From positions 155,741 to 219,740 of the forward strand of contig CAZRCI010000003.1 of the NCBI GenBank assembly GCA_964598535.1: a DNA stretch of 64,000 nt, in the 5' to 3' direction. Both the position numbers and the translations under genes were made by a program. The stretch comes from an uncultured Planctomycetaceae bacterium. Its GTDB lineage: Bacteria; Planctomycetota; Planctomycetia; Pirellulales; PALSA-1355. The notes under the pieces are model-generated. The model was given only the letters and a program-made list of their open reading frames with translations, made no database searches and was not told where the DNA came from. This document shows positions 43,202-55,339 of the stretch, in pieces. Each line of letters begins with the position of its first letter. Within the stretch, counting starts at the first letter, position 1.

Positions 43202-44719
43202 CTACCCCAGCGCCGCCCGCGTGCGCTCGACTAGCTTGTTGTCTTGCGCGCCGCTTCCTCGCAGATTGAACACGCTCGAAGCCAGAAAACGTCCCCGATA
43301 CTGCGGCGAAACGTGTTGATAATCCTCCAACACGGCACTACTGAACTTGTAATCGTGCGAGTTGGTCCCTTTCAGGAAGATCAGCATGCGCGCCGCGTTA
43401 ATGAACTCGTGCGGAGCAGGATGCGAATCGACGTAGGAAAGCGTCTTCTCCGCGGCGGTCATCGGATCGCGGCTCACGTCGGCAAAGATCTCTTCCACGG
43501 CCGTTGGCCCTTCAGCAACTGTCGCCGGCGCAAGCTGGTCGAGCTTCTTCTCCGGCACATTGTCGCCCATCGCGTCACGAAACATCGTCAAAAACGCCGC
43601 GTTCTGCAGGAGCAGCAACTTGCGAGTCTCTTCGCTGGCCGCCGTGTCCCACGCGTAGCGGAGCGCGTTGGTCGTCGTGACCGCGTGCAGCGGAACGATC
43701 CCCGGCTTGCGCATCAACAGTTCTCCCGCGCCCAGGAATAGCGCATCCCAGACCGACTGCGGGGCCACGCCGCGATTCACTAGTTCGATCACCTTATCGC
43801 TGGCTTCGTTCTCGTTGGCTTGCCTGAGCGCGGCCAGCAACTCCGCCGTGGCGCCCTCATCCGGTTTCCCGGCGAGCCAATCGGGGTTGATCGCTTGCGC
43901 GCGTTCCAAGTTGCGCCGCCAAGGGCGATCCGCCCGTTCATCGCTCTGGGCCGGATTCTTACCGTCGTGTTGCAAAAGCGCGTAGGTCAGCGAGCGCAGC
44001 ACTGGTTCGGTGTGCTGGTGGCCGATGCAATTGAGGGTTCGCAGACTATTGGCTACGTAGATCGCCTTGTGACCGATATCGCGAAAGTCGCGCATCCCAT
44101 AACGAAACATCAGTTCGAAGATCTCCTGCGTGCCGGCCGAGCGAGCGAGCGCCGCGGCCGCCGCGTCGGTAGCGGCTTCGTCCCAACGGTCCATCGCTTT
44201 GCTCAGTGCCGCCCGGGCCTTGGCCGCGTTGGGCACAGCCGCTTCGTCCACGCGTTGCATCGTCCAATTGCCTTCGCGCTCGTCGCGGGCCTGCGAATCC
44301 TTGAAGTAGTCGAGCGCCCAAAATATCGGCAACCAGCGATGTTCATCCGGAGACGCCATGCTCGCCAGGTGCGCGGAATTCACCACCAGCACAGCGTGAA
44401 ATTTAAAGCCTACATGCGGCCGCGGTTGCACGTTGCGAACGCCTGCCAGCAGCAGCGCGGTCAGCAGTTCTTGATAGCTCAAGCCGCCACGAATACGCTG
44501 AGCAACCTCTTCCAGCAGGCGGTCGCGGGGCGTGTCTTCGAGCAATCGGACGATTGGCTCGATCTCGGGCTGAAATTGCACGCGATCGGGCGACAGCGCC
44601 GCGTCATCCGCCCGAACCGGCGTCAGCCTTCCCAAAAAACCAAGATCGCCAAATCCGGCGAGAGCTCCGGCCGAAGCCGCGGTTCGCAAGAAGGTCCGCC
44701 TTGAGTTCCCTTGCGCCAT
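43202..44719 (-). CDS. TAT-exported hypothetical protein
   Basis: SRRTFLRTAASAGALAGF twin-arginine signal. 505 aa, largely helical. No motif recognised. Confidence 0.6.
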   Translation of the reverse strand: MAQGNSRRTFLRTAASAGALAGFGDLGFLGRLTPVRADDAALSPDRVQFQPEIEPIVRLLEDTPRDRLLEEVAQRIRGGLSYQELLTALLLAGVRNVQPRPHVGFKFHAVLVVNSAHLASMASPDEHRWLPIFWALDYFKDSQARDEREGNWTMQRVDEAAVPNAAKARAALSKAMDRWDEAATDAAAAALARSAGTQEIFELMFRYGMRDFRDIGHKAIYVANSLRTLNCIGHQHTEPVLRSLTYALLQHDGKNPAQSDERADRPWRRNLERAQAINPDWLAGKPDEGATAELLAALRQANENEASDKVIELVNRGVAPQSVWDALFLGAGELLMRKPGIVPLHAVTTTNALRYAWDTAASEETRKLLLLQNAAFLTMFRDAMGDNVPEKKLDQLAPATVAEGPTAVEEIFADVSRDPMTAAEKTLSYVDSHPAPHEFINAARMLIFLKGTNSHDYKFSSAVLEDYQHVSPQYRGRFLASSVFNLRGSGAQDNKLVERTRAALG

Positions 44720-47729: not shown

Positions 47730-48335
47730 ATGGAACTTCGTGAAGCGCTCGTGCAGATCGCCGAGATTCGGCGGCAGATGGCGAAGAGCGATGTGTTTCG
47801 CGGCTACCGGTCGGCGCCGGTTGCCGTGTCCGGGGCGTTGGCCGTGGCCGGCGCGGTCGTACAGCCGTTTCTCGTGTCCGATCCGGCCGTCAACATCATG
47901 CCGTATTTGACGCTCTGGTTTGGCATGGCGTTGTTCAGCGTTGCGGCGGTGGCCGTGGAGATGGGCGTCCGCATGTATTGGACCGACGACTGGGCCTACC
48001 TCGAGCCTACCCGACTGGCGGTGGAGCAGTTCGTGCCTCCCATGATTGCCGGAATCCTGCTCACGGTCGTGCTGGTGCGCAACTCGCCCGACAGCGTTCC
48101 CCTGCTGCCGGGCCTGTGGCAAATTCTGTTCAGCTTGGGGATTTTTGCCTCGGCTCGCTTGTTACCTCGCCCCATTTTTGCCGTGGCGGGTTTCTACCTG
48201 TTTACCGGGACCCTCGTGCTGATCTTCGCGCGAGATAACCTGGCGCTCGAGCCCTGGTGCATGGGGATACCGTTCGCGGTTGGCCAATTTTCGGCGGCCT
48301 CGATACTCTATTGGACATTGGAACGACGCAAATGA
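47730..48335 (+). CDS. hypothetical polytopic membrane protein
   Basis: 201 aa with 5-6 hydrophobic helices. Stop overlaps the next start (ATGA). Confidence 0.6.
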   Translation: MELREALVQIAEIRRQMAKSDVFRGYRSAPVAVSGALAVAGAVVQPFLVSDPAVNIMPYLTLWFGMALFSVAAVAVEMGVRMYWTDDWAYLEPTRLAVEQFVPPMIAGILLTVVLVRNSPDSVPLLPGLWQILFSLGIFASARLLPRPIFAVAGFYLFTGTLVLIFARDNLALEPWCMGIPFAVGQFSAASILYWTLERRK

Positions 48336-48730
48336 CCGAATCACTCGACAGCACGCCAAAGCCCACCGCCCCGTTTGCCTACGAGGGACTTGAGCGAGTG
48401 ATTCACGAGAAGGCCCGTCTGGGAATTCTCTCCTCGCTGGTCGCGCACGGCGAGTGGCTGGCCTTCTCGGAACTCAAACGGCTCTGCGCCCTGACCGATG
48501 GCAACCTCAATCGCCACTTGCAGGTGCTCCAAGACGCGGGCCTGGTCGATGTCCGCAAGGAAGTCGCCAACAAACGGCCCCAGACGCTCTGCCGGCTAAC
48601 CGGGGAAGGACGCCGGCGGTTCGTCGAATACCTCGGTGTTCTAGAACGCATCGTGGGCGACGCCTTTCACGCCCGGCTCAGAGAGTCGATCGCAACGCGC
48701 GGACTTGGCCAGGGCCTGTCGCCCGCTTAG
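48332..48730 (+). CDS. winged-helix transcriptional regulator
   Basis: IHEKARLGILSSLVAHGEWLAFSELKRLCALTDGNLNRHLQVLQDAGLVDVRK. Translationally coupled to the upstream membrane protein. Confidence 0.75.
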   Translation: MTESLDSTPKPTAPFAYEGLERVIHEKARLGILSSLVAHGEWLAFSELKRLCALTDGNLNRHLQVLQDAGLVDVRKEVANKRPQTLCRLTGEGRRRFVEYLGVLERIVGDAFHARLRESIATRGLGQGLSPA

Positions 48731-50504: not shown

Positions 50505-51914
50505 ATGCACAAGCCCGCGATTCACTTACCGCATCGCCGCGATCTGCTTCGCGCGGGCGGTCTGGGGCTATTCGGCCTCGGCCTGCCAGACTTAATGCGC
50601 AGTCGTGCGCTGGCAGATAGCTCGGGCACCGCGTCCCCTGCGGGCGGCGCCTTTGGCCGCGCCAAGGCCTGCATCCTTCTCTTCATGTGGGGAGGTCCCG
50701 CCCAACACGATACCTGGGATCTCAAACCGCTTGCGCCGGCCGAGATCCGTGGCGAATTCAACCCAATAGCCACCCAGGTGCCGGGGATTCACATCTGTGA
50801 ACACTTTCCGCAACTCGCTCAGCGCACCGACAAATTATGCATCGTGCGTTCCGTAACCCACGGCGACGTGAACCACACGACCGCGACCAGCTACCTGCTT
50901 ACCGGGCAACCACCCGCGCCCACCGACCTGCGTAGTGACTGGCCGCACATCGGCGCGGTCCTGGCGCGGCTTGGCCGGGGGCGCAATCCACTACCGCCGT
51001 TTGTCTCGATGCGGCCCAAGCTGGAAAACGACGTCCCCCGCTTCGTCGAAGAGAGCCACGGCCAGTCCGCCGGTTGGTTAGGTCAAGCGCTGGATCCACT
51101 TTCGATCGATGCCAACCCCGCCGCCGCCGACTATCGCGTCGGCGATTTCCACCTTCCAGCCGAGATTTCCCTCGAACGGTTGGACGATCGCCGCAAGCTG
51201 CTGGCCGACGTCAACCGCCAACTCGAAACACAGATCCGATCGGCCGCCCTGGGTGCCATGGACCACCACGTCGAACGGGCTTTCGACATCCTCAACTCCG
51301 CGACCGCGGGCGGAGCTTTCGACCTCTCGCAAGAACCGACCCCGATCCGCGAGCGTTACGGACTGAACCCGCACGGTCAGTCCGTGCTGCAAGCTCGCCG
51401 GCTCGTCGAGCGCGGCGTACCGCTGGTGACGGTGTTCTGGCCCAGCGACGGAATCAAGAACGTCAGCGTCTATTGGGACACGCACAGCCGGAACTTCATC
51501 GACCTGAAAGAACGGTTGATGCCCCCGGCGGACCAGGCGTTCTCGGCACTGCTCGATGACCTTGCCGAGCGAGGCATGCTCGACGAGACGCTCATCGTTT
51601 GGACGGGCGAGTTTGGCCGCACGCCGCGCGTGGGGCAACGCAACAGCGACGCCGGCGCCGGCCGCGATGGCCGCGACCATTGGCCCGGCTGCTTCACCAG
51701 CGTGCTCGCCGGCGGAGGCGTGCGCGGCGGCCACGTCCATGGCGCGTCCGACCGCCATGCGGCCTACCCTGCGGCCAATCCCGTCGCGCCGGTCGACTTG
51801 GTGGCCACGGCCTACCACCTGCTCGGCGTCGACCAGCACCTGACGCTGCCCGATGCCCAGGGCCGTCCGCTCACGATCTGCCCCGGGGCGCCCATTCGCG
51901 ATCTGTTGGTGTGA
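50505..51914 (+). CDS. DUF1501 domain protein (TAT signal)
   Basis: HRRDLLRAGGLGLFGLG. LFMWGGPAQHDTWDLKP and GRDHWPGCFTSVLAGGGVRGG. TATAAT lies 7 nt upstream of ATG 50505. Confidence 0.9.
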   Translation: MHKPAIHLPHRRDLLRAGGLGLFGLGLPDLMRSRALADSSGTASPAGGAFGRAKACILLFMWGGPAQHDTWDLKPLAPAEIRGEFNPIATQVPGIHICEHFPQLAQRTDKLCIVRSVTHGDVNHTTATSYLLTGQPPAPTDLRSDWPHIGAVLARLGRGRNPLPPFVSMRPKLENDVPRFVEESHGQSAGWLGQALDPLSIDANPAAADYRVGDFHLPAEISLERLDDRRKLLADVNRQLETQIRSAALGAMDHHVERAFDILNSATAGGAFDLSQEPTPIRERYGLNPHGQSVLQARRLVERGVPLVTVFWPSDGIKNVSVYWDTHSRNFIDLKERLMPPADQAFSALLDDLAERGMLDETLIVWTGEFGRTPRVGQRNSDAGAGRDGRDHWPGCFTSVLAGGGVRGGHVHGASDRHAAYPAANPVAPVDLVATAYHLLGVDQHLTLPDAQGRPLTICPGAPIRDLLV

Positions 51915-51957
51915 TGGGCTTTCCATGGAAGCGAGTCGCGCTTTCCTGCCCGCAATC

Positions 51958-52019
51958 ACTCCCCACAGGGGGGTTCTGGGGTGGGAGAGCCAAAGAGGAA
52001 GAAATCGTCCTGTTCCGTC
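51958..52019 (+). repeat. hairpin-containing repeat, copy L1
   Basis: CTCCCC-ACA-GGGGGG hairpin, then gggagagcc...gaaatcgt...ttccgtc. By-eye alignment to 53832-53879. Confidence 0.45.
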
Positions 52020-52035
52020 ATTAAATTCTGGGGCC

Positions 52036-52153
52036 CCTTGCCGCGATCAATCACGACCTCTCCACGATCGAACAGAGCGTAATTCTCACTTGCCTTGCTG
52101 ACTCCCCCTTGTGGGGAGGTCCGGGGAGGAGGATGATAACCCTGCAAGGCAAG
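52036..52153 (-). repeat. hairpin-containing repeat, copy L2 (inverted relative to R), nested in a 10-bp outer stem
   Basis: CTCCCC-cttgt-GGGGAG (52102-52118). Outer stem cttgccttgc (52089-52098) / gcaaggcaag (52144-52153). The reverse complement aligns by eye to 53832-53952 in blocks cctccccRcaaggggg, agtgaga, atcgtggaRaggtcgYgat. Confidence 0.5.
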
Positions 52154-52180
52154 CGATCACAAACAAATACTCAGCTTCGT

Positions 52181-52351
52181 GGTCGCAGAGTACCCTAAGC
52201 CGGTTGAGATCGGACGCTGATGCGTTCGACTTTGCCTCTCTGGGGATACCCCGGGGGATCGTGAAAGGTTCGGATTTCGTCGCGTGAGCGCCGATGCGCT
52301 GCGTGCATAACTGCTCACGCCAGACCAGACTCGTTAGGGTACTCTGCGGCC
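52181..52351 (+). ncRNA. retron non-coding RNA (msr-msd) candidate
   Basis: a1 52181-52198 pairs with a2 52334-52351 (18 bp, one G-U). AGC follows a1 directly (candidate branching G at 52199). msr-side hairpins at 52200-52213, 52212-52227 and 52238-52256. msd-side 8-bp stem gcgtgagc/gctcacgc at 52282-52320. a2 ends 10 nt before the RT ATG. Confidence 0.7.
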
Positions 52352-52361
52352 CAACTTTTCC

Positions 52362-53684
52362 ATGCACTCGAATGCCGTCATCGCCCGGGCGCTCGCCGCG
52401 GTCTTTCTGGCCGACACGCTCGACGTGAACGGACTCGTCGAGCGAGGCGCCCACCTGCTGGGCAAGCGGTGGCGGTGGCTTCACCCGCTGGTCCGTCGCG
52501 TTTGTGAATCGTTCGGCAATCGGACACGTCCTCGACAACGTGAACTGGCCGGGTTCATCCTTGGCGACCACGGCTTCCGGGAAGCTGCGGGCAAGTACCG
52601 CCTCAGACTCGTCGATCGCTTGAGCGCGCCGCCCGCGATGACTCCGGTCGCGGCGGCTCGCGCGTGGGAAGTTCCGGCGATCCGCACGCCCGGTGAGCTC
52701 TGCGACTGGCTACAAATCAGCGCCGGCGAATTGGATTGGTTCGCCGACCTGAGAGCCTTCGAATACAAGCGAAATCAAGGCCGGCTCAGACATTACCATT
52801 ACCGCACGTTGGCAAAGCGATCCGGACAAGCGCGGCTGCTCGAAGCCCCCAAGCCGCGGCTCAAGGCGATCCAGCGCCGTATCTTGACAGGCATCATCGA
52901 CCACATTCCCGCGCATACCGCGGCGCATGGCTTTATGCGAGGTCGTTCGATCAAAACGTTCGCTGTGCCGCATATCGGCAAACAAGTCGTTCTGCGTCTC
53001 GACCTGCAAAACTTCTTCCCGTCGATTTCGGCGGCTCGAATCAGGGCCTTGTTTCGTACGGCCGGCTACCCCGAACGCGTCGCCGATCTGCTCGCCGGCC
53101 TGTGCACGAACGCGGCGCCCGAGGACGTCTGGAACGAGCTGACCGTGTCGATGCCAAGCTCGCAATTGCGCGGAGCGCGCGAGCTGCACGCCAGACCGCA
53201 TTTGCCGCAAGGAGCACCGACGTCGCCCGCGCTGGCGAACCTGTGCGCCTATCGCCTGGATTGCCGGCTGGCCGCAATGGCAACCTCGGCCGGCGCAGTC
53301 TATACGCGATACGCGGACGATCTGGCGTTCTCGGGCGACCAGCAGTTCGAGCGCATCGCCAAACGTTTTCAGCTCCACGTGTCTGCCGTTGCAATCAAGG
53401 AAGGATTTTCGGTGCATCACCGCAAGACGCGCGTCATGCGCCGTGGCGTTCGCCAGCATCTGGCAGGTGTCGTCGTGAACGATCACCCAAACGTGACTCG
53501 CGCGGACTTCGATCGCCTCAAGGCCACGCTGACGAACTGCATTCGCCACGGCGCAGCGAGTCAGAACCGAGCGGGCCACGACGACTTCCGCGCCCATCTT
53601 CTCGGGCGAGTTTCATTCGTCGCGATGATCAATCCTGCTCGCGGCCAGCGCTTGCAAGCACTGTTCGAGCGGATTGAGTGGTAG
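52362..53684 (+). CDS. retron-type reverse transcriptase with N-terminal extension of about 105 aa
   Basis: RT motifs LEAPKPRLKAIQRRIL, AAHGFMRGRSI, LRLDLQNFFPSI, LPQGAPTSPALANL, YTRYADDLAFS, RQHLAGVVVN (position of the retron VTG motif). GC3-rich throughout, including the N-terminal extension. Confidence 0.9.
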   Translation: MHSNAVIARALAAVFLADTLDVNGLVERGAHLLGKRWRWLHPLVRRVCESFGNRTRPRQRELAGFILGDHGFREAAGKYRLRLVDRLSAPPAMTPVAAARAWEVPAIRTPGELCDWLQISAGELDWFADLRAFEYKRNQGRLRHYHYRTLAKRSGQARLLEAPKPRLKAIQRRILTGIIDHIPAHTAAHGFMRGRSIKTFAVPHIGKQVVLRLDLQNFFPSISAARIRALFRTAGYPERVADLLAGLCTNAAPEDVWNELTVSMPSSQLRGARELHARPHLPQGAPTSPALANLCAYRLDCRLAAMATSAGAVYTRYADDLAFSGDQQFERIAKRFQLHVSAVAIKEGFSVHHRKTRVMRRGVRQHLAGVVVNDHPNVTRADFDRLKATLTNCIRHGAASQNRAGHDDFRAHLLGRVSFVAMINPARGQRLQALFERIEW

Positions 53685-53831
53685 CCAACTCGAGATAACT
53701 GAAAGGATTCGCTCAGCAGGCGAAATCCGAGATGTCCGATATCTCCGGATGCAATTCCGTGAGATCCTCACGCAGGTAGCTCGGCGGCACGATCGCCAGG
53801 ACGTGGTAAACGCGACGCTGCGGTCCTGCAT

Positions 53832-53952
53832 CCCCCTCCCCGCAAGGGGGCGGGAGCCGAGTGAGAGAATCGTTCCGCCAACCAGGGCTCAAGACGTATT
53901 GAGAATCGCAGTCCGTCCAATCGTGGAAAGGTCGCGATCGTCGCAGCAACGG
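53832..53952 (+). repeat. hairpin-containing repeat, copy R
   Basis: tCCCC-gcaa-GGGGg hairpin (53837-53850), then gggagccgagtgagagaatcgttccgcc and aatcgtggaaaggtcgcgatcgtcgcagcaacgg. Related by eye to L1 (direct) and L2 (inverted). Confidence 0.5.
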
Positions 53953-53974
53953 ACCTTCGCGCGCCGTTGCTGCT
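53944..53974. terminator. perfect 10-bp stem hairpin between the convergent RT and glgC genes
   Basis: gcagcaacgg-11 nt-ccgttgctgc. On the plus strand it is followed by a partly T-rich stretch (ttggcgactttgcgttttctct). Confidence 0.35.
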
Positions 53975-54040
53975 TGGCGACTTTGCGTTTTCTCTGCCCT
54001 GCTCAACAGATCCGCGTCTCCGCTCCTCTACGACGAACGC

Positions 54041-55339
54041 TCAAATCGCCCAGCCGTCGGGCACGATCGCGCCGCGCTGGACACAAACGATGCCATCGCG
54101 AATCACGGCCTGCTCGGTCTCGTCCTGCGTGTTCTCGGTCGAATCCAGCTCGCGCTCGTTGACAATCCTAACGCCGCGGCCGATACGGCAATTCTTGTCG
54201 ATGATTGCTCGGCGAATGGTCGTCCCCGCGCCGATGCCCTGGCGCGGCGTCCCCGCCGTTTCAGCCTGGTTCGCGTCGGCGGCGGTTTCATATTCATCGT
54301 TGCCCATCAACACCGAATCGCGAATCGTGACGTTCTTTCCGATCCGGCAGCGCAAACCGATGACGCTATTCTCAATGATCGTGCCTTCTTCGATCTCGCA
54401 ACCGTCGGCGATCAAGCTGTTGCGAATCGTCACGCCGTCGAGCCGCGACGGCGCCAAGAACCGTGCGCGGGTATAAATCGGCGCCACGGCCGACGCCAGA
54501 TCGAATGGACGCTCGATCGTGGCGAGTTGCAGGTTCGCCTCGTAAAAGGAACGGATCGTGCCGATGTCTTCCCAGTAACCGTCGAACAGATCGACCTGCA
54601 CGCGATGCGAGCGCGTGGCCGCGGGAAAAATCTCTCGGCCAAAGTCGTGATAGTCCGTCATCGTGAGCAGCTTCACCAGCGTTTGCCGGTTGAAAAGATA
54701 AATGCCCATGCTCGCCAGGCAATCGCGCCCGCGACTGGCGATTCCCCGCGCGTCGATCCAGGCCGGCTCCATCCGCACCATATCGATCTCTTTGTCCGTT
54801 TGCGGCTTTTCGAGAAAGCCCGCCACGCGCCCGCTGTCGTCGACGCGCATGAGCCCCATCGACCGGGCCGTCTGCCTATCGACGGGAATCCCCGCGATAG
54901 TGACATCCGCGGCGCTCTCCTTGTGGGCCGCCAACATCCGCCGAAAATCCATCCGGTAAAGCTGATCGCCCGAGAGCACCAGCACATAGTCATACTCCGG
55001 CTGATCGATGTACCGCAGATTTTGCCGTACCGCGTCGGCGGTGCCTTGATACCAGCTTTCGGCGCCGAGCGTCTGCTGTGCGGCCAGGATCTCGACAAAT
55101 CCCGCGCTGAAGGCGTCGAACGCATAGGTGCGGCGAATGTGCCGGTGCAAGCTCACCGAATTGAACTGCGTCAGCACGTACATGCGGTTCAAACCGCTAT
55201 TGATGCAATTCGACAGGGGAATGTCGATCAGGCGATATTTGCCCGCAAGCGGCACGGCCGGCTTCGAGCGATAGTGCGTAAGCGGGTAAAGTCGTGTGCC
55301 CCGTCCGCCACCGAGAACCAACGTCAATACGTTCCGCAT
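54041..55339 (-). CDS. glgC: glucose-1-phosphate adenylyltransferase
   Basis: LVLGGGRGTRLYPLTHYRSKPAVPLAGKYRLIDIPLSNCINSG and C-terminal left-handed beta-helix repeats. Confidence 0.95.
   Translation of the reverse strand: MRNVLTLVLGGGRGTRLYPLTHYRSKPAVPLAGKYRLIDIPLSNCINSGLNRMYVLTQFNSVSLHRHIRRTYAFDAFSAGFVEILAAQQTLGAESWYQGTADAVRQNLRYIDQPEYDYVLVLSGDQLYRMDFRRMLAAHKESAADVTIAGIPVDRQTARSMGLMRVDDSGRVAGFLEKPQTDKEIDMVRMEPAWIDARGIASRGRDCLASMGIYLFNRQTLVKLLTMTDYHDFGREIFPAATRSHRVQVDLFDGYWEDIGTIRSFYEANLQLATIERPFDLASAVAPIYTRARFLAPSRLDGVTIRNSLIADGCEIEEGTIIENSVIGLRCRIGKNVTIRDSVLMGNDEYETAADANQAETAGTPRQGIGAGTTIRRAIIDKNCRIGRGVRIVNERELDSTENTQDETEQAVIRDGIVCVQRGAIVPDGWAI

What the first reader, a model, noticed from the sequence alone, without database searches (positions are those of the whole stretch)
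52181..53684. Complete-looking retron (msr-msd ncRNA plus retron-type RT) in a planctomycete-like genome
Seen directly:
- An 18-bp inverted repeat pair, ggtcgcagagtaccctaa (52181-52198) and ttagggtactctgcggcc (52334-52351), with one G-U wobble. It brackets 135 nt of hairpin-rich sequence and ends 10 nt before the ATG of a 440-aa ORF.
- That ORF carries RT motifs of retron flavour: AAHGF, LDLQNFFPSI, LPQGAPTSP, RYADDLAFS, and LAGVVVN in place of VTG.
- The left repeat is followed at once by AGC.

In characterised retrons the branching guanosine sits at the 3' end of a1 in an AGC-like context. From my recollection of Ec86, its msr begins ...CACCCUUAGCGAG; here the sequence is ...GUACCCUAAGCCGG. 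The a1-msr-msd-a2-RT order and spacing match classical retron architecture. I know of no experimentally characterised retron from this phylum, but I have not checked that.
Basis: partly seen in the sequence, partly recalled or inferred. Interest (0 to 1): 0.8.

Follow-up and report, generated by a model that had tools for sequence, protein, structure and literature searches.

The report
Stand-alone clade-11 retron in a planctomycete

Summary
The 18-nt inverted repeat (52181-52198 / 52334-52351) brackets a structured 135-nt RNA that ends 10 nt before a 440-aa ORF.

- **Reverse transcriptase (RT).** The ORF's best sequence and fold matches are all retron RTs.
- **RNA.** The same RNA lies directly upstream of the homologous RT in 77 of 81 sources searched (80 fetched loci plus the window), across at least six phyla. 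Of its 42 base pairs, 35 show compensatory changes. An invariant G follows a1 and faces an invariant G before a2.
- **No partner gene.** No flanking gene is conserved. Here the neighbours are DUF1501, GlgC and LeuRS.
- **Lineage.** RT profile ranking, RNA similarity and lack of an effector place it in Mestre et al. (2020) RT clade 11. [quoted passage not shown] Khan et al. found that several clade-11 members make RT-DNA in E. coli, mostly weakly.

It is therefore a new member of a known kind, possibly the first look at a planctomycete example. Two things remain open. One is the function of an effector-less retron. The other is its conserved N-terminal helical domain, which has no detectable relative outside this RT family. 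msDNA production by this particular locus is inferred, not shown.

The parts
52181..52198 (+). a1, the 5' arm of the closing stem of the retron ncRNA
   Evidence: Pairs with 52334-52351. 16 of the 17 modelled pairs show compensatory changes across 30 loci. Covariance-model (CM) alignment.
52199..52199 (+). Predicted branching guanosine, whose 2'-OH would prime cDNA synthesis
   Evidence: Invariant G directly 3' of a1 in all 30 aligned loci, within the near-invariant motif AAGC. It faces the invariant G52333. The role is inferred from established retron biochemistry and from census data on branching G.
52199..52261 (+). msr, the RNA part that stays unconverted (3' limit approximate)
   Evidence: Limit inferred from the RT-DNA 3' ends of clade-11 relatives, which stop 3-12 nt 3' of the conserved hairpin.
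52210..52229 (+). msr stem-loop 1, variable in sequence
   Evidence: Present in the minimum-free-energy fold. The four modelled pairs are 52211-14 with 52225-28 and vary with partial compensation, 79% paired.
52238..52256 (+). Conserved msr hairpin CUCUGGGG-AUA-CCCCGGGG, the family signature and likely RT recognition element
   Evidence: 99% paired. Four pairs are invariant and three show compensatory changes. The same hairpin is in the published clade-11 ncRNAs. RT recognition is an inference.
52262..52333 (+). msd, the predicted template for about 65-75 nt of single-stranded DNA (5' limit approximate). G52333 is the first templated base
   Evidence: G52333 is invariant. In relatives the RT-DNA begins with the complement of the G just 5' of a2.
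52282..52320 (+). msd stem-loop: outer helix 52282-89 with 52313-20, inner helix 52294-98 with 52304-08
   Evidence: 13 pairs, 12 with compensatory changes, 93-99% paired.
52334..52351 (+). a2, the 3' arm of the closing stem
52362..53684 (+). Retron-type reverse transcriptase gene, 440 aa, stop codon included
   Evidence: PADLOC RT_other 3e-158 and RT_outgroup 2e-151, both full length. Pfam RVT_1. PDB and Foldseek hits are retron RTs.
52362..52751 (+). N-terminal extension of the RT (aa 1-130): a five-helix bundle plus two helices, family-specific, function unknown
   Evidence: Conserved across the family. AlphaFold pLDDT 80-94 for aa 1-80. No match in PDB by fold or sequence, or in Pfam. Every hit I inspected had it at the N-terminus of this RT.
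53310..53321 (+). Codons for the catalytic YADD motif (Y317-D320)
   Evidence: Invariant in the 23-sequence alignment, together with D214 of motif A.

Best explanation
This is a functional stand-alone retron of the lineage Mestre et al. (2020) called RT clade 11. It is a 1.5-kb cassette made only of an msr-msd non-coding RNA (52181-52351) and its reverse transcriptase (52362-53684).

Proposed mechanism, by analogy with characterised retrons:
1. The RNA and the RT are transcribed together.
2. a1 and a2 pair. This places the invariant G52199 opposite the invariant G52333.
3. The RT binds the msr, probably at the conserved CUCUGGGGAUACCCCGGGG hairpin.
4. The RT uses the 2'-OH of G52199 as primer. 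It copies the RNA leftwards from G52333 to about 52262-52270.
5. The product is a branched msDNA: about 65-75 nt of single-stranded DNA joined 2'-5' to the msr RNA.

Shown here: the RT's retron affinity, the conserved covarying RNA, the two invariant Gs, the RNA-RT linkage across phyla, and the absence of a linked effector.

Inferred: msDNA synthesis at this locus, the msd boundaries, and RT recognition of the hairpin.

The biological output is unknown. My best guess is a phage-sensing ribonucleoprotein that acts through the family-specific N-terminal domain or through an unlinked partner. That guess rests only on what other retrons do, and I give it about 0.4. The confidence figure below refers to identity and to the mechanism of DNA synthesis.
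For: RT:
- Full-length best matches to PADLOC retron RT profiles: RT_other 526 bits, RT_outgroup 503 bits, then RT_XIII 347 bits.
- All 14 PDB sequence hits are retron RTs. The Foldseek top 18 are all retron RTs.
- Catalytic D214 and YADD, H280 of region X and G369 of region Y are invariant.

RNA:
- z = -6.8 for the fold.
- The 30-locus alignment has 42 pairs, 35 with double changes. 93.9% of cells are paired against 40-47% when partners are slid. There are 155 double-change cells against 37 +/- 6 in shuffles, 0 of 500 reaching the observed value.
- The covariance model finds the RNA on the + strand directly upstream of the RT in 77 of 81 sources. L080 gives a 5'-truncated hit and the other three lack upstream DNA. 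There is one plus-strand hit in the window.

Lineage:
- Census clade-11 ncRNAs share the signature hairpin.
- 8 of 12 clade-11 ncRNAs match a sequence profile of my alignment, against 0 of 4 clade-10 ncRNAs.
- The a1 of census terminal 1875 (Myxococcus xanthus DZ2) is contained in the a1 arm found in L052.

Activity in relatives:
- RT-DNA by PAGE reached up to 2.5x Eco1 (terminal 1928).
- RT-DNA sequences are reported for six clade-11 retrons. The four I checked against their ncRNAs (1840, 1894, 1913, 1928) run from the a2-proximal end of the msd to at or just 3' of the conserved hairpin. In 1894 and 1928 the first base is the complement of the G 5' of a2.

Stand-alone status:
- No conserved flanking ORF of 80 aa or more within 4.5 kb.
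- No conserved coding signal in 600-nt flanks.
- Neighbours are housekeeping genes with no relevant defence-profile hits; the only PADLOC match was a weak generic Csa3-type winged-helix hit to the 157-aa wHTH ORF (48257-48730).
Against: - No experiment on this locus or on any planctomycete.
- Most clade-11 retrons tested in E. coli gave little or no RT-DNA by PAGE: 0 for terminals 1840, 1856, 1912 and 1914, and 0.02-0.16x Eco1 for four others.
- No sigma-70-like promoter was found upstream on the + strand. The scan does not cover planctomycete promoter types.
- The predicted msd DNA does not fold better than shuffles (z = 0.06).
- Assignment to clade 11 rests on profile names, ncRNA similarity and shared taxa. 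I did not build a tree with Mestre's reference sequences because they were not available.
- Loci for the covariation alignment were picked partly because a stem had been found there. The covariance-model search over all loci lessens this concern but does not remove it.
Confidence: 0.85

Rival explanations
1. It is an ordinary tripartite defence retron whose toxin or effector is encoded elsewhere in the genome and acts in trans.
For: Characterised retrons are tripartite toxin-antitoxin-like defence systems (abstracts listed). Mestre et al. raise trans-acting effectors as one option for orphan retrons.
Against: No partner gene co-occurs within 4.5 kb in any of 81 loci across six or more phyla. 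Mestre et al. report that most genomes with orphan retrons lack homologues of known retron-associated proteins. Nothing in the window resembles a known effector. Genome-wide co-occurrence could not be tested here.
Confidence: 0.25
2. It is a domesticated retron with a non-defence cellular role. The msDNA-RT complex, through the N-terminal domain, would serve some housekeeping or regulatory function.
For: - Housekeeping neighbourhood and host-like G+C.
- Strong conservation of the whole protein, 59-73% identity across the 23 aligned sequences, which by the source names available are largely Pirellulales/Planctomycetes.
- The rough tree clusters largely by phylum.
- Mestre et al. suggest domestication for vertically inherited retrons, and name clade 11 as taxonomically restricted.
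Against: - Flanks differ even between moderately related genomes.
- The window's planctomycete subclade nests inside Acidobacteriota sequences, which points to transfer between phyla.
- No function is known for any retron outside defence.
Confidence: 0.25
3. It is a type XIII retron of the Mx162/Mx65 kind, as a typed classifier might label it.
For: RT_XIII is the best typed PADLOC profile (4e-104). A 2026 survey assigned 26 Planctomycetota retrons to type XIII, and 56% of Planctomycetota candidates were low-confidence.
Against: - RT_other and RT_outgroup score about 160-180 bits higher and cover the full length. RT_XIII aligns only from residue 99.
- No SWIM zinc-finger or HEAT/ARM neighbour.
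- A profile of this ncRNA hits none of four clade-10 ncRNAs.
Confidence: 0.04
4. It is an RT gene with a structured 5' leader, a cis-regulatory RNA that is never reverse transcribed. Alternatively it is an inactive relic.
For: Several clade-11 constructs gave no detectable RT-DNA by PAGE in E. coli. Rfam has no model that matches the RNA.
Against: - Six clade-11 relatives gave sequenced RT-DNA that maps to the homologous msd.
- The ORF is intact and the catalytic residues are invariant.
- Both Gs at the priming site are invariant, which a mere leader would not require.
Confidence: 0.06

Closest known systems
Mestre et al. 2020 RT clade 11 stand-alone retrons, for example census terminals 1823 (Arthrobacter), 1840/1841 (Nakamurella), 1875 (Myxococcus xanthus DZ2) and 1928
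   Same: - Layout: msr-msd directly upstream of a roughly 440-aa RT, with no accessory gene.
- The same signature msr hairpin, CUC(C/U)GGGG-NNA-CCCC(G/A)GGG.
- a1/a2 closing stem with a G on each side.
- The N-terminal extension is conserved as far as Actinomycetota and Myxococcus homologues, which align from residues 1-7.
   Different: - Host phylum. Mestre described clade 11 as essentially Actinobacteria. Here the family also covers Planctomycetota, Acidobacteriota, Verrucomicrobiota and Pseudomonadota.
- RT identity to the Actinomycetota and Myxococcus homologues in my set is only 43-48%.
- This locus is untested.
Type XIII retrons (clade 10: Mx162, Mx65, Sa163, Ne144)
   Same: Closest typed RT family (RT_XIII 4e-104). 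These RTs are also long, judging by the 469-position RT_XIII profile, of which the first ~105 positions lie upstream of the aligned region. Inheritance is partly vertical.
   Different: Type XIII has a linked SWIM zinc-finger protein and HEAT/ARM proteins, and a different, longer ncRNA. None of these is found here. The N-terminal roughly 100 residues do not align.
Retron-Eco1 (Ec86), type II-A3, the best solved structure
   Same: RT fold and motifs. Ec86 is the best PDB hit by sequence (1.5e-30) and by fold (1.2e-13). The msr-msd logic of a1/a2 plus a priming G is shared.
   Different: Ec86 RT is 320 aa with no N-terminal domain. It has a nucleoside deoxyribosyltransferase-like effector. RT identity is about 25%, and region Y reads VTG rather than LAG.

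Membership tests
Retron (msr-msd ncRNA plus retron RT) | RT more similar to retron RTs than to group II intron, DGR, Abi/UG or CRISPR-associated RTs | tested here: met
   All of the best 25 PADLOC hits shown are retron RT models. All 14 PDB sequence hits and the Foldseek top 18 are retron RTs, with G2L4, group II, DRT and DGR below them.
Retron (msr-msd ncRNA plus retron RT) | Intact polymerase active site: motif A Asp and YxDD | tested here: met
   D214 and Y317-A-D-D320 are invariant in 23 sequences.
Retron (msr-msd ncRNA plus retron RT) | Region X (NAxxH, H most conserved) between RT2 and RT3, and region Y (VTG, G most conserved) in RT7, as defined in Mestre 2020 | tested here: met
   The conserved residues are present: H280 (HARPH; family consensus Y-S/A-x-P-H) and G369 (LAG) are invariant. 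The N of NAxxH and the V-T of VTG are replaced, so the match covers the most conserved residue of each motif only.
Retron (msr-msd ncRNA plus retron RT) | Adjacent ncRNA closed by a1/a2 inverted repeats, with structure conserved by covariation | tested here: met
   There are 17 a1/a2 pairs, 16 with compensatory changes. The RNA was found upstream of the RT in 77 of 81 sources.
Retron (msr-msd ncRNA plus retron RT) | Conserved priming G at the 3' end of a1, opposite a G at the start of the msd template | tested here: met
   G52199 and G52333 are invariant in 30 loci. In the relatives checked (1894, 1928) the RT-DNA starts with the complement of the corresponding G. The 2'-5' bond itself cannot be tested here.
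Retron (msr-msd ncRNA plus retron RT) | RT-dependent production of branched msDNA | not testable with these tools
   Only indirect evidence: six clade-11 relatives gave sequenced RT-DNA in E. coli.
Tripartite retron defence system | Linked effector gene, or an effector domain fused to the RT | tested here: not met
   No conserved neighbour. No relevant defence-profile hits in flanking genes (only a weak generic Csa3-type wHTH match to the 157-aa ORF) and no C-terminal fusion. The N-terminal domain has no recognisable fold, so an effector role is neither supported nor excluded.
Mestre RT clade 11 (stand-alone retrons) | RT groups with clade-11 references rather than with typed clades | tested here: inconclusive
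   - Best profiles are the untyped PADLOC RT_other and RT_outgroup.
- My homologue set includes the same genera as the census clade-11 entries: Nakamurella, Arthrobacter, Myxococcus.
- No tree with the reference proteins was possible, because the supplements are not held.
Mestre RT clade 11 (stand-alone retrons) | ncRNA of the clade-11 structural family | tested here: met
   An nhmmer profile of my alignment hits 8 of 12 published clade-11 ncRNAs (E from 6e-8 to 3e-3) and 0 of 4 clade-10 ncRNAs. The signature hairpin is shared. Which sub-family (A or B) was not determined.
Mestre RT clade 11 (stand-alone retrons) | No associated protein | tested here: met
   The census table lists an empty subtype for clade 11.
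Type XIII retron | Linked SWIM zinc-finger (cluster 114) and/or HEAT/ARM proteins, and the type XIII ncRNA | tested here: not met
Group II intron RT | Intron RNA domains around the ORF and a maturase (X) domain | tested here: not met
   No Rfam intron hit in 51000-55000. Pfam finds only RVT_1. Group II RTs rank below all retron RTs in the fold search.

The most novel reading that the evidence does not exclude
Clade-11 retrons could be a widespread class of self-sufficient retrons. In this reading the conserved N-terminal helical domain, which has no detectable relative outside this RT family, is the built-in output or sensor module. Alternatively the msDNA-RT particle has been domesticated for a role other than abortive infection. 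Supporting facts: at least 590 species-representative genomes across six or more phyla, and 947 half-identity clusters for the N-terminal domain. The planctomycete copy, sitting between housekeeping genes with host-like composition, would be an example.
Probability: 0.2. Interest if true: 0.6.

Novelty: new member of a known kind. Interest (0 to 1): 0.3.

Why it matters
The locus adds a well-supported planctomycete member to a retron lineage that was described as essentially actinobacterial. The lineage turns out to be common in Acidobacteriota, Planctomycetota, Verrucomicrobiota and Pseudomonadota. The covariation data give a firm RNA model for it: a1/a2, a signature hairpin, the msd stem and the two priming Gs.

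The broader question is not specific to this window. It asks what a retron does without an effector, and what the family-specific N-terminal domain is for. Clade 11 is a good place to ask, because Myxococcus xanthus DZ2 carries a member and is genetically tractable. For genome-editing work the family looks a poor producer in E. coli, with one exception (terminal 1928).

Tried and rejected
- **Rfam scan of 51000-55000 at E <= 10:** only chance hits, no retron or intron family.
- **Conserved partner gene:** I clustered all ORFs of 80 aa or more within 4.5 kb in 81 loci. Only the RT and shadow ORFs overlapping it recur. tblastx of 600-nt flanks finds only near-identical genome pairs.
- **PADLOC and Pfam on ten flanking ORFs:** housekeeping genes and no relevant defence hits; the only PADLOC match was a weak generic Csa3-type winged-helix hit to the 157-aa wHTH ORF.
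- **N-terminal domain:** Pfam gave only a chance HTH_20 hit (E = 0.45). A PDB profile search found nothing below E = 0.03. A separate AlphaFold model with Foldseek against PDB found nothing below E = 4. A profile search of 1.8 billion representatives returned 947 hits. Those I inspected were this RT or truncated or frameshifted fragments of it, not free-standing domains.
- **Sigma-70 promoter scan:** nothing on the + strand upstream.
- **Composition profile:** no island signal.
- **DNA-parameter fold of the predicted msd:** not better than shuffles.
- **Source organism:** the exact protein is in the collection (NCBI, 226.5-kb contig) but carries no name, and its contig is not retrievable.
- **Mestre supplementary sequences:** not held, so there is no reference tree.
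- **Rejected readings:** group II intron, DGR and UG/Abi, because those RTs rank lower and their RNA or accessory features are absent. Type XIII, for the reasons given under rival explanations.
Full report
**1. The observation**

The sequence is as described.
- GGTCGCAGAGTACCCTAA (52181-52198) and TTAGGGTACTCTGCGGCC (52334-52351) form an 18-pair stem with one G-U, separated by 135 nt.
- The second arm ends 10 nt before the ATG of a 440-aa ORF, 52362-53684.
- The quoted peptide motifs are all in the translation.
- The RNA 52175-52361 folds at -95.6 kcal/mol, against -66.3 +/- 4.3 for dinucleotide shuffles (z = -6.8, 0 of 200 as good).

**2. The protein**

- PADLOC's best profiles are RT_other (3e-158) and RT_outgroup (2e-151, labelled 'retron'). 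Both cover the whole protein. RT_XIII follows (4e-104, from residue 99 only), and then other retron types.
- Pfam sees only RVT_1.
- All 14 PDB sequence matches are retron RTs, with Ec86 best at 1.5e-30.
- An AlphaFold model (pLDDT 74) finds retron RTs as its top 18 Foldseek hits. G2L4, group II intron, DRT and DGR enzymes rank below them.
- In a 23-sequence alignment the following are invariant: the catalytic D214 and YADD, H280 (the conserved His of region X) and G369 (the conserved Gly of region Y, here LAG rather than VTG).

**3. The family and its RNA**

Full-length proteins of about 440 aa reach 60-73% identity, and those that carry a source name are from Pirellulales or Planctomycetes.

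A scan of species-representative genomes found at least 590 loci. I kept 80. They come from Planctomycetota, Acidobacteriota, Verrucomicrobiota, Pseudomonadota, Myxococcus and Actinomycetota.

A simple search for long-range inverted repeats upstream of each RT recovered the same architecture in about 50 loci. The arms have different sequences, the spacing is about 125-137 nt, and a1 almost always ends ...(C/U)AA followed by GC.

A 30-locus alignment (A2) gave these results:
- An RNAalifold consensus of 42 pairs, 35 of which have compensatory double changes.
- On that structure 93.9% of cells are paired, against 40-47% when the partners are slid by 1-3 columns.
- There are 155 double-change cells against 37 +/- 6 in shuffles, and none of 500 shuffles reached the observed value.

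A covariance model built from A2 finds the RNA on the + strand directly upstream of the RT in 77 of 81 sources. L080 gives a 5'-truncated hit and the other three lack upstream sequence. The model gives one plus-strand hit in the window, 52178-52354 at 151 bits.

Two positions that flank the closing stem are invariant. One is G52199, right after a1. The other is G52333, right before a2. This is the 'two opposing G' arrangement of retron ncRNAs described by Mestre et al..

One caveat: loci for A2 were chosen partly because a stem had already been seen there. The model search over all loci is the less biased result.

**4. No partner gene**

- I clustered every ORF of 80 aa or more within 4.5 kb of the RT in 81 loci. 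Only the RT and shadow ORFs overlapping it recur.
- A tblastx comparison of 600-nt flanks shows that only near-identical genome pairs share flanks. None shares flanks with the window.
- In the window the neighbours are FGE-sulfatase, an Exo_endo_phos protein, a winged-helix regulator, an FAD protein and DUF1501 on one side. On the other side are GlgC, LeuRS and an AI-2E transporter. They give no relevant PADLOC hits; the only match is a weak generic Csa3-type winged-helix hit to the wHTH ORF.
- G+C is flat at 0.60-0.65 across the region.

The conserved unit is therefore just the 1.5-kb RNA-RT cassette.

**5. Comparison with what is known**

Mestre et al. (PMC7736814) grouped retron RTs into 11 clades. 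[quoted passage not shown] They describe clade 11 as essentially restricted to Actinobacteria. They also suggest that some vertically inherited retrons may have been domesticated.

The Khan et al. census (PMC10849725) lists terminals 1807-1928 as clade 11 with no subtype. These include Arthrobacter, Nakamurella and Myxococcus xanthus DZ2. Evidence that the window's element belongs with them:
- Their published ncRNAs carry the same signature hairpin as window 52238-52256.
- The a1 of terminal 1875 is contained in the a1 arm I found in L052, from Myxococcus qinghaiensis.
- A sequence profile of my alignment hits 8 of 12 clade-11 ncRNAs and none of four clade-10 (type XIII) ncRNAs.

In E. coli these retrons gave the following RT-DNA relative to Eco1 (by PAGE):

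| Census terminal | RT-DNA relative to Eco1 |
|---|---|
| 1928 | 2.5x |
| 1894 | 0.16x |
| 1925 | 0.06x |
| 1875 | 0.02x |
| 1913 | 0.02x |
| 1840, 1856, 1912, 1914 | none |

RT-DNA sequences are reported for six of them. In the four I checked against their ncRNAs (1840, 1894, 1913, 1928) the DNA runs from the a2-proximal end of the msd to at or just 3' of the signature hairpin. In 1894 and 1928 the first base is the complement of the G 5' of a2. Mapped onto the window, this predicts a DNA of about 65-75 nt templated by about 52262-52333.

A 2026 survey (10.64898/2026.05.14.725207) already reports clade 11-A in Pseudomonadota, Actinomycetota and Acidobacteriota. It assigns Planctomycetota retrons mostly to type XIII, and notes that 56% of Planctomycetota candidates overall were low-confidence. 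The present RT shows why such calls can be shaky. RT_XIII is its best typed profile, but it scores about 160-180 bits below the untyped ones.

I found no planctomycete retron among the census entries or in the searchable literature.

**6. The N-terminal domain**

Residues 1 to about 130 are conserved across the family, including the Actinomycetota and Myxococcus homologues. They are predicted with confidence as a five-helix bundle followed by two helices.

- They match nothing in Pfam, nothing in PDB sequences and nothing in PDB folds.
- A profile search of 1.8 billion representatives gives 947 hits. Those I inspected were this RT or truncated or frameshifted fragments of it.
- The function is unknown. 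This domain is the only candidate for a built-in output module.

**7. Evolution**

A rough neighbour-joining tree, without support values, clusters the RTs largely by phylum. The window's subclade (window, L001, L002, L005) nests inside the Acidobacteriota sequences, away from the other Planctomycetota. That pattern suggests inheritance mostly within phyla, with at least one transfer between phyla.

**8. Verdict**

The element is a retron of a catalogued, effector-less lineage, so it is a new member of a known kind. Production of msDNA by this copy is likely but inferred. The biological role of the lineage is open.

Noticed in passing
window 51959-51973 / 52104-52118, and about 53833-53856: G+C-rich palindromic motifs flank the cassette. 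CTCCCCACAGGGGGG and CCCCCTTGTGGGGAG form a 15-nt inverted repeat 130 nt apart, just upstream of a1 (I2). A similar CCCCTCCCCGCAAGGGGGCGGGAG lies downstream of the RT (seen). The exact pattern CTCCCC-N3-8-GGGGAG occurs only once in the window. They could be terminators, REP-like elements or insertion scars.
   Followed up: partly
L052 5811-5983 (Myxococcus qinghaiensis); census terminal 1875 (M. xanthus DZ2): Myxococcus carries a clade-11 stand-alone retron in addition to the classical type XIII retrons Mx162 and Mx65. This gives a genetically tractable host for studying the lineage.
   Followed up: partly
L001, L002, L005 and the window versus L032, L043, L047, L048, L068: Planctomycete RTs of this family fall into at least two separate groups. 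The window's group nests within the Acidobacteriota sequences in a rough NJ tree, which suggests transfer between phyla.
   Followed up: partly
L037 (contig CALQCC020000047.1): A MAG labelled 'Bordetella parapertussis' carries an RT and ncRNA that group with Acidobacteriota sequences. This is probably a mis-binned or mislabelled contig.
   Followed up: no
window 43202-44719 (-) and 47730-48335 (+): Two sizeable ORFs (505 aa and 201 aa) have no Pfam or PADLOC match at E <= 1e-5. The 201-aa ORF looks hydrophobic in its translation.
   Followed up: no
census terminals 1894-1928 versus 1823-1884 (PMC10849725, supplement 3): The published clade-11 ncRNAs split into two flavours. One has CUCAGGGGUAACCCCUGGG with GAGAG after a1. 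The other has CUCCGGGG(A/C)(U/A)ACCCCGGGG. Only the second group matched my sequence profile. This probably corresponds to Mestre's clade11-A and clade11-B structural families.
   Followed up: no
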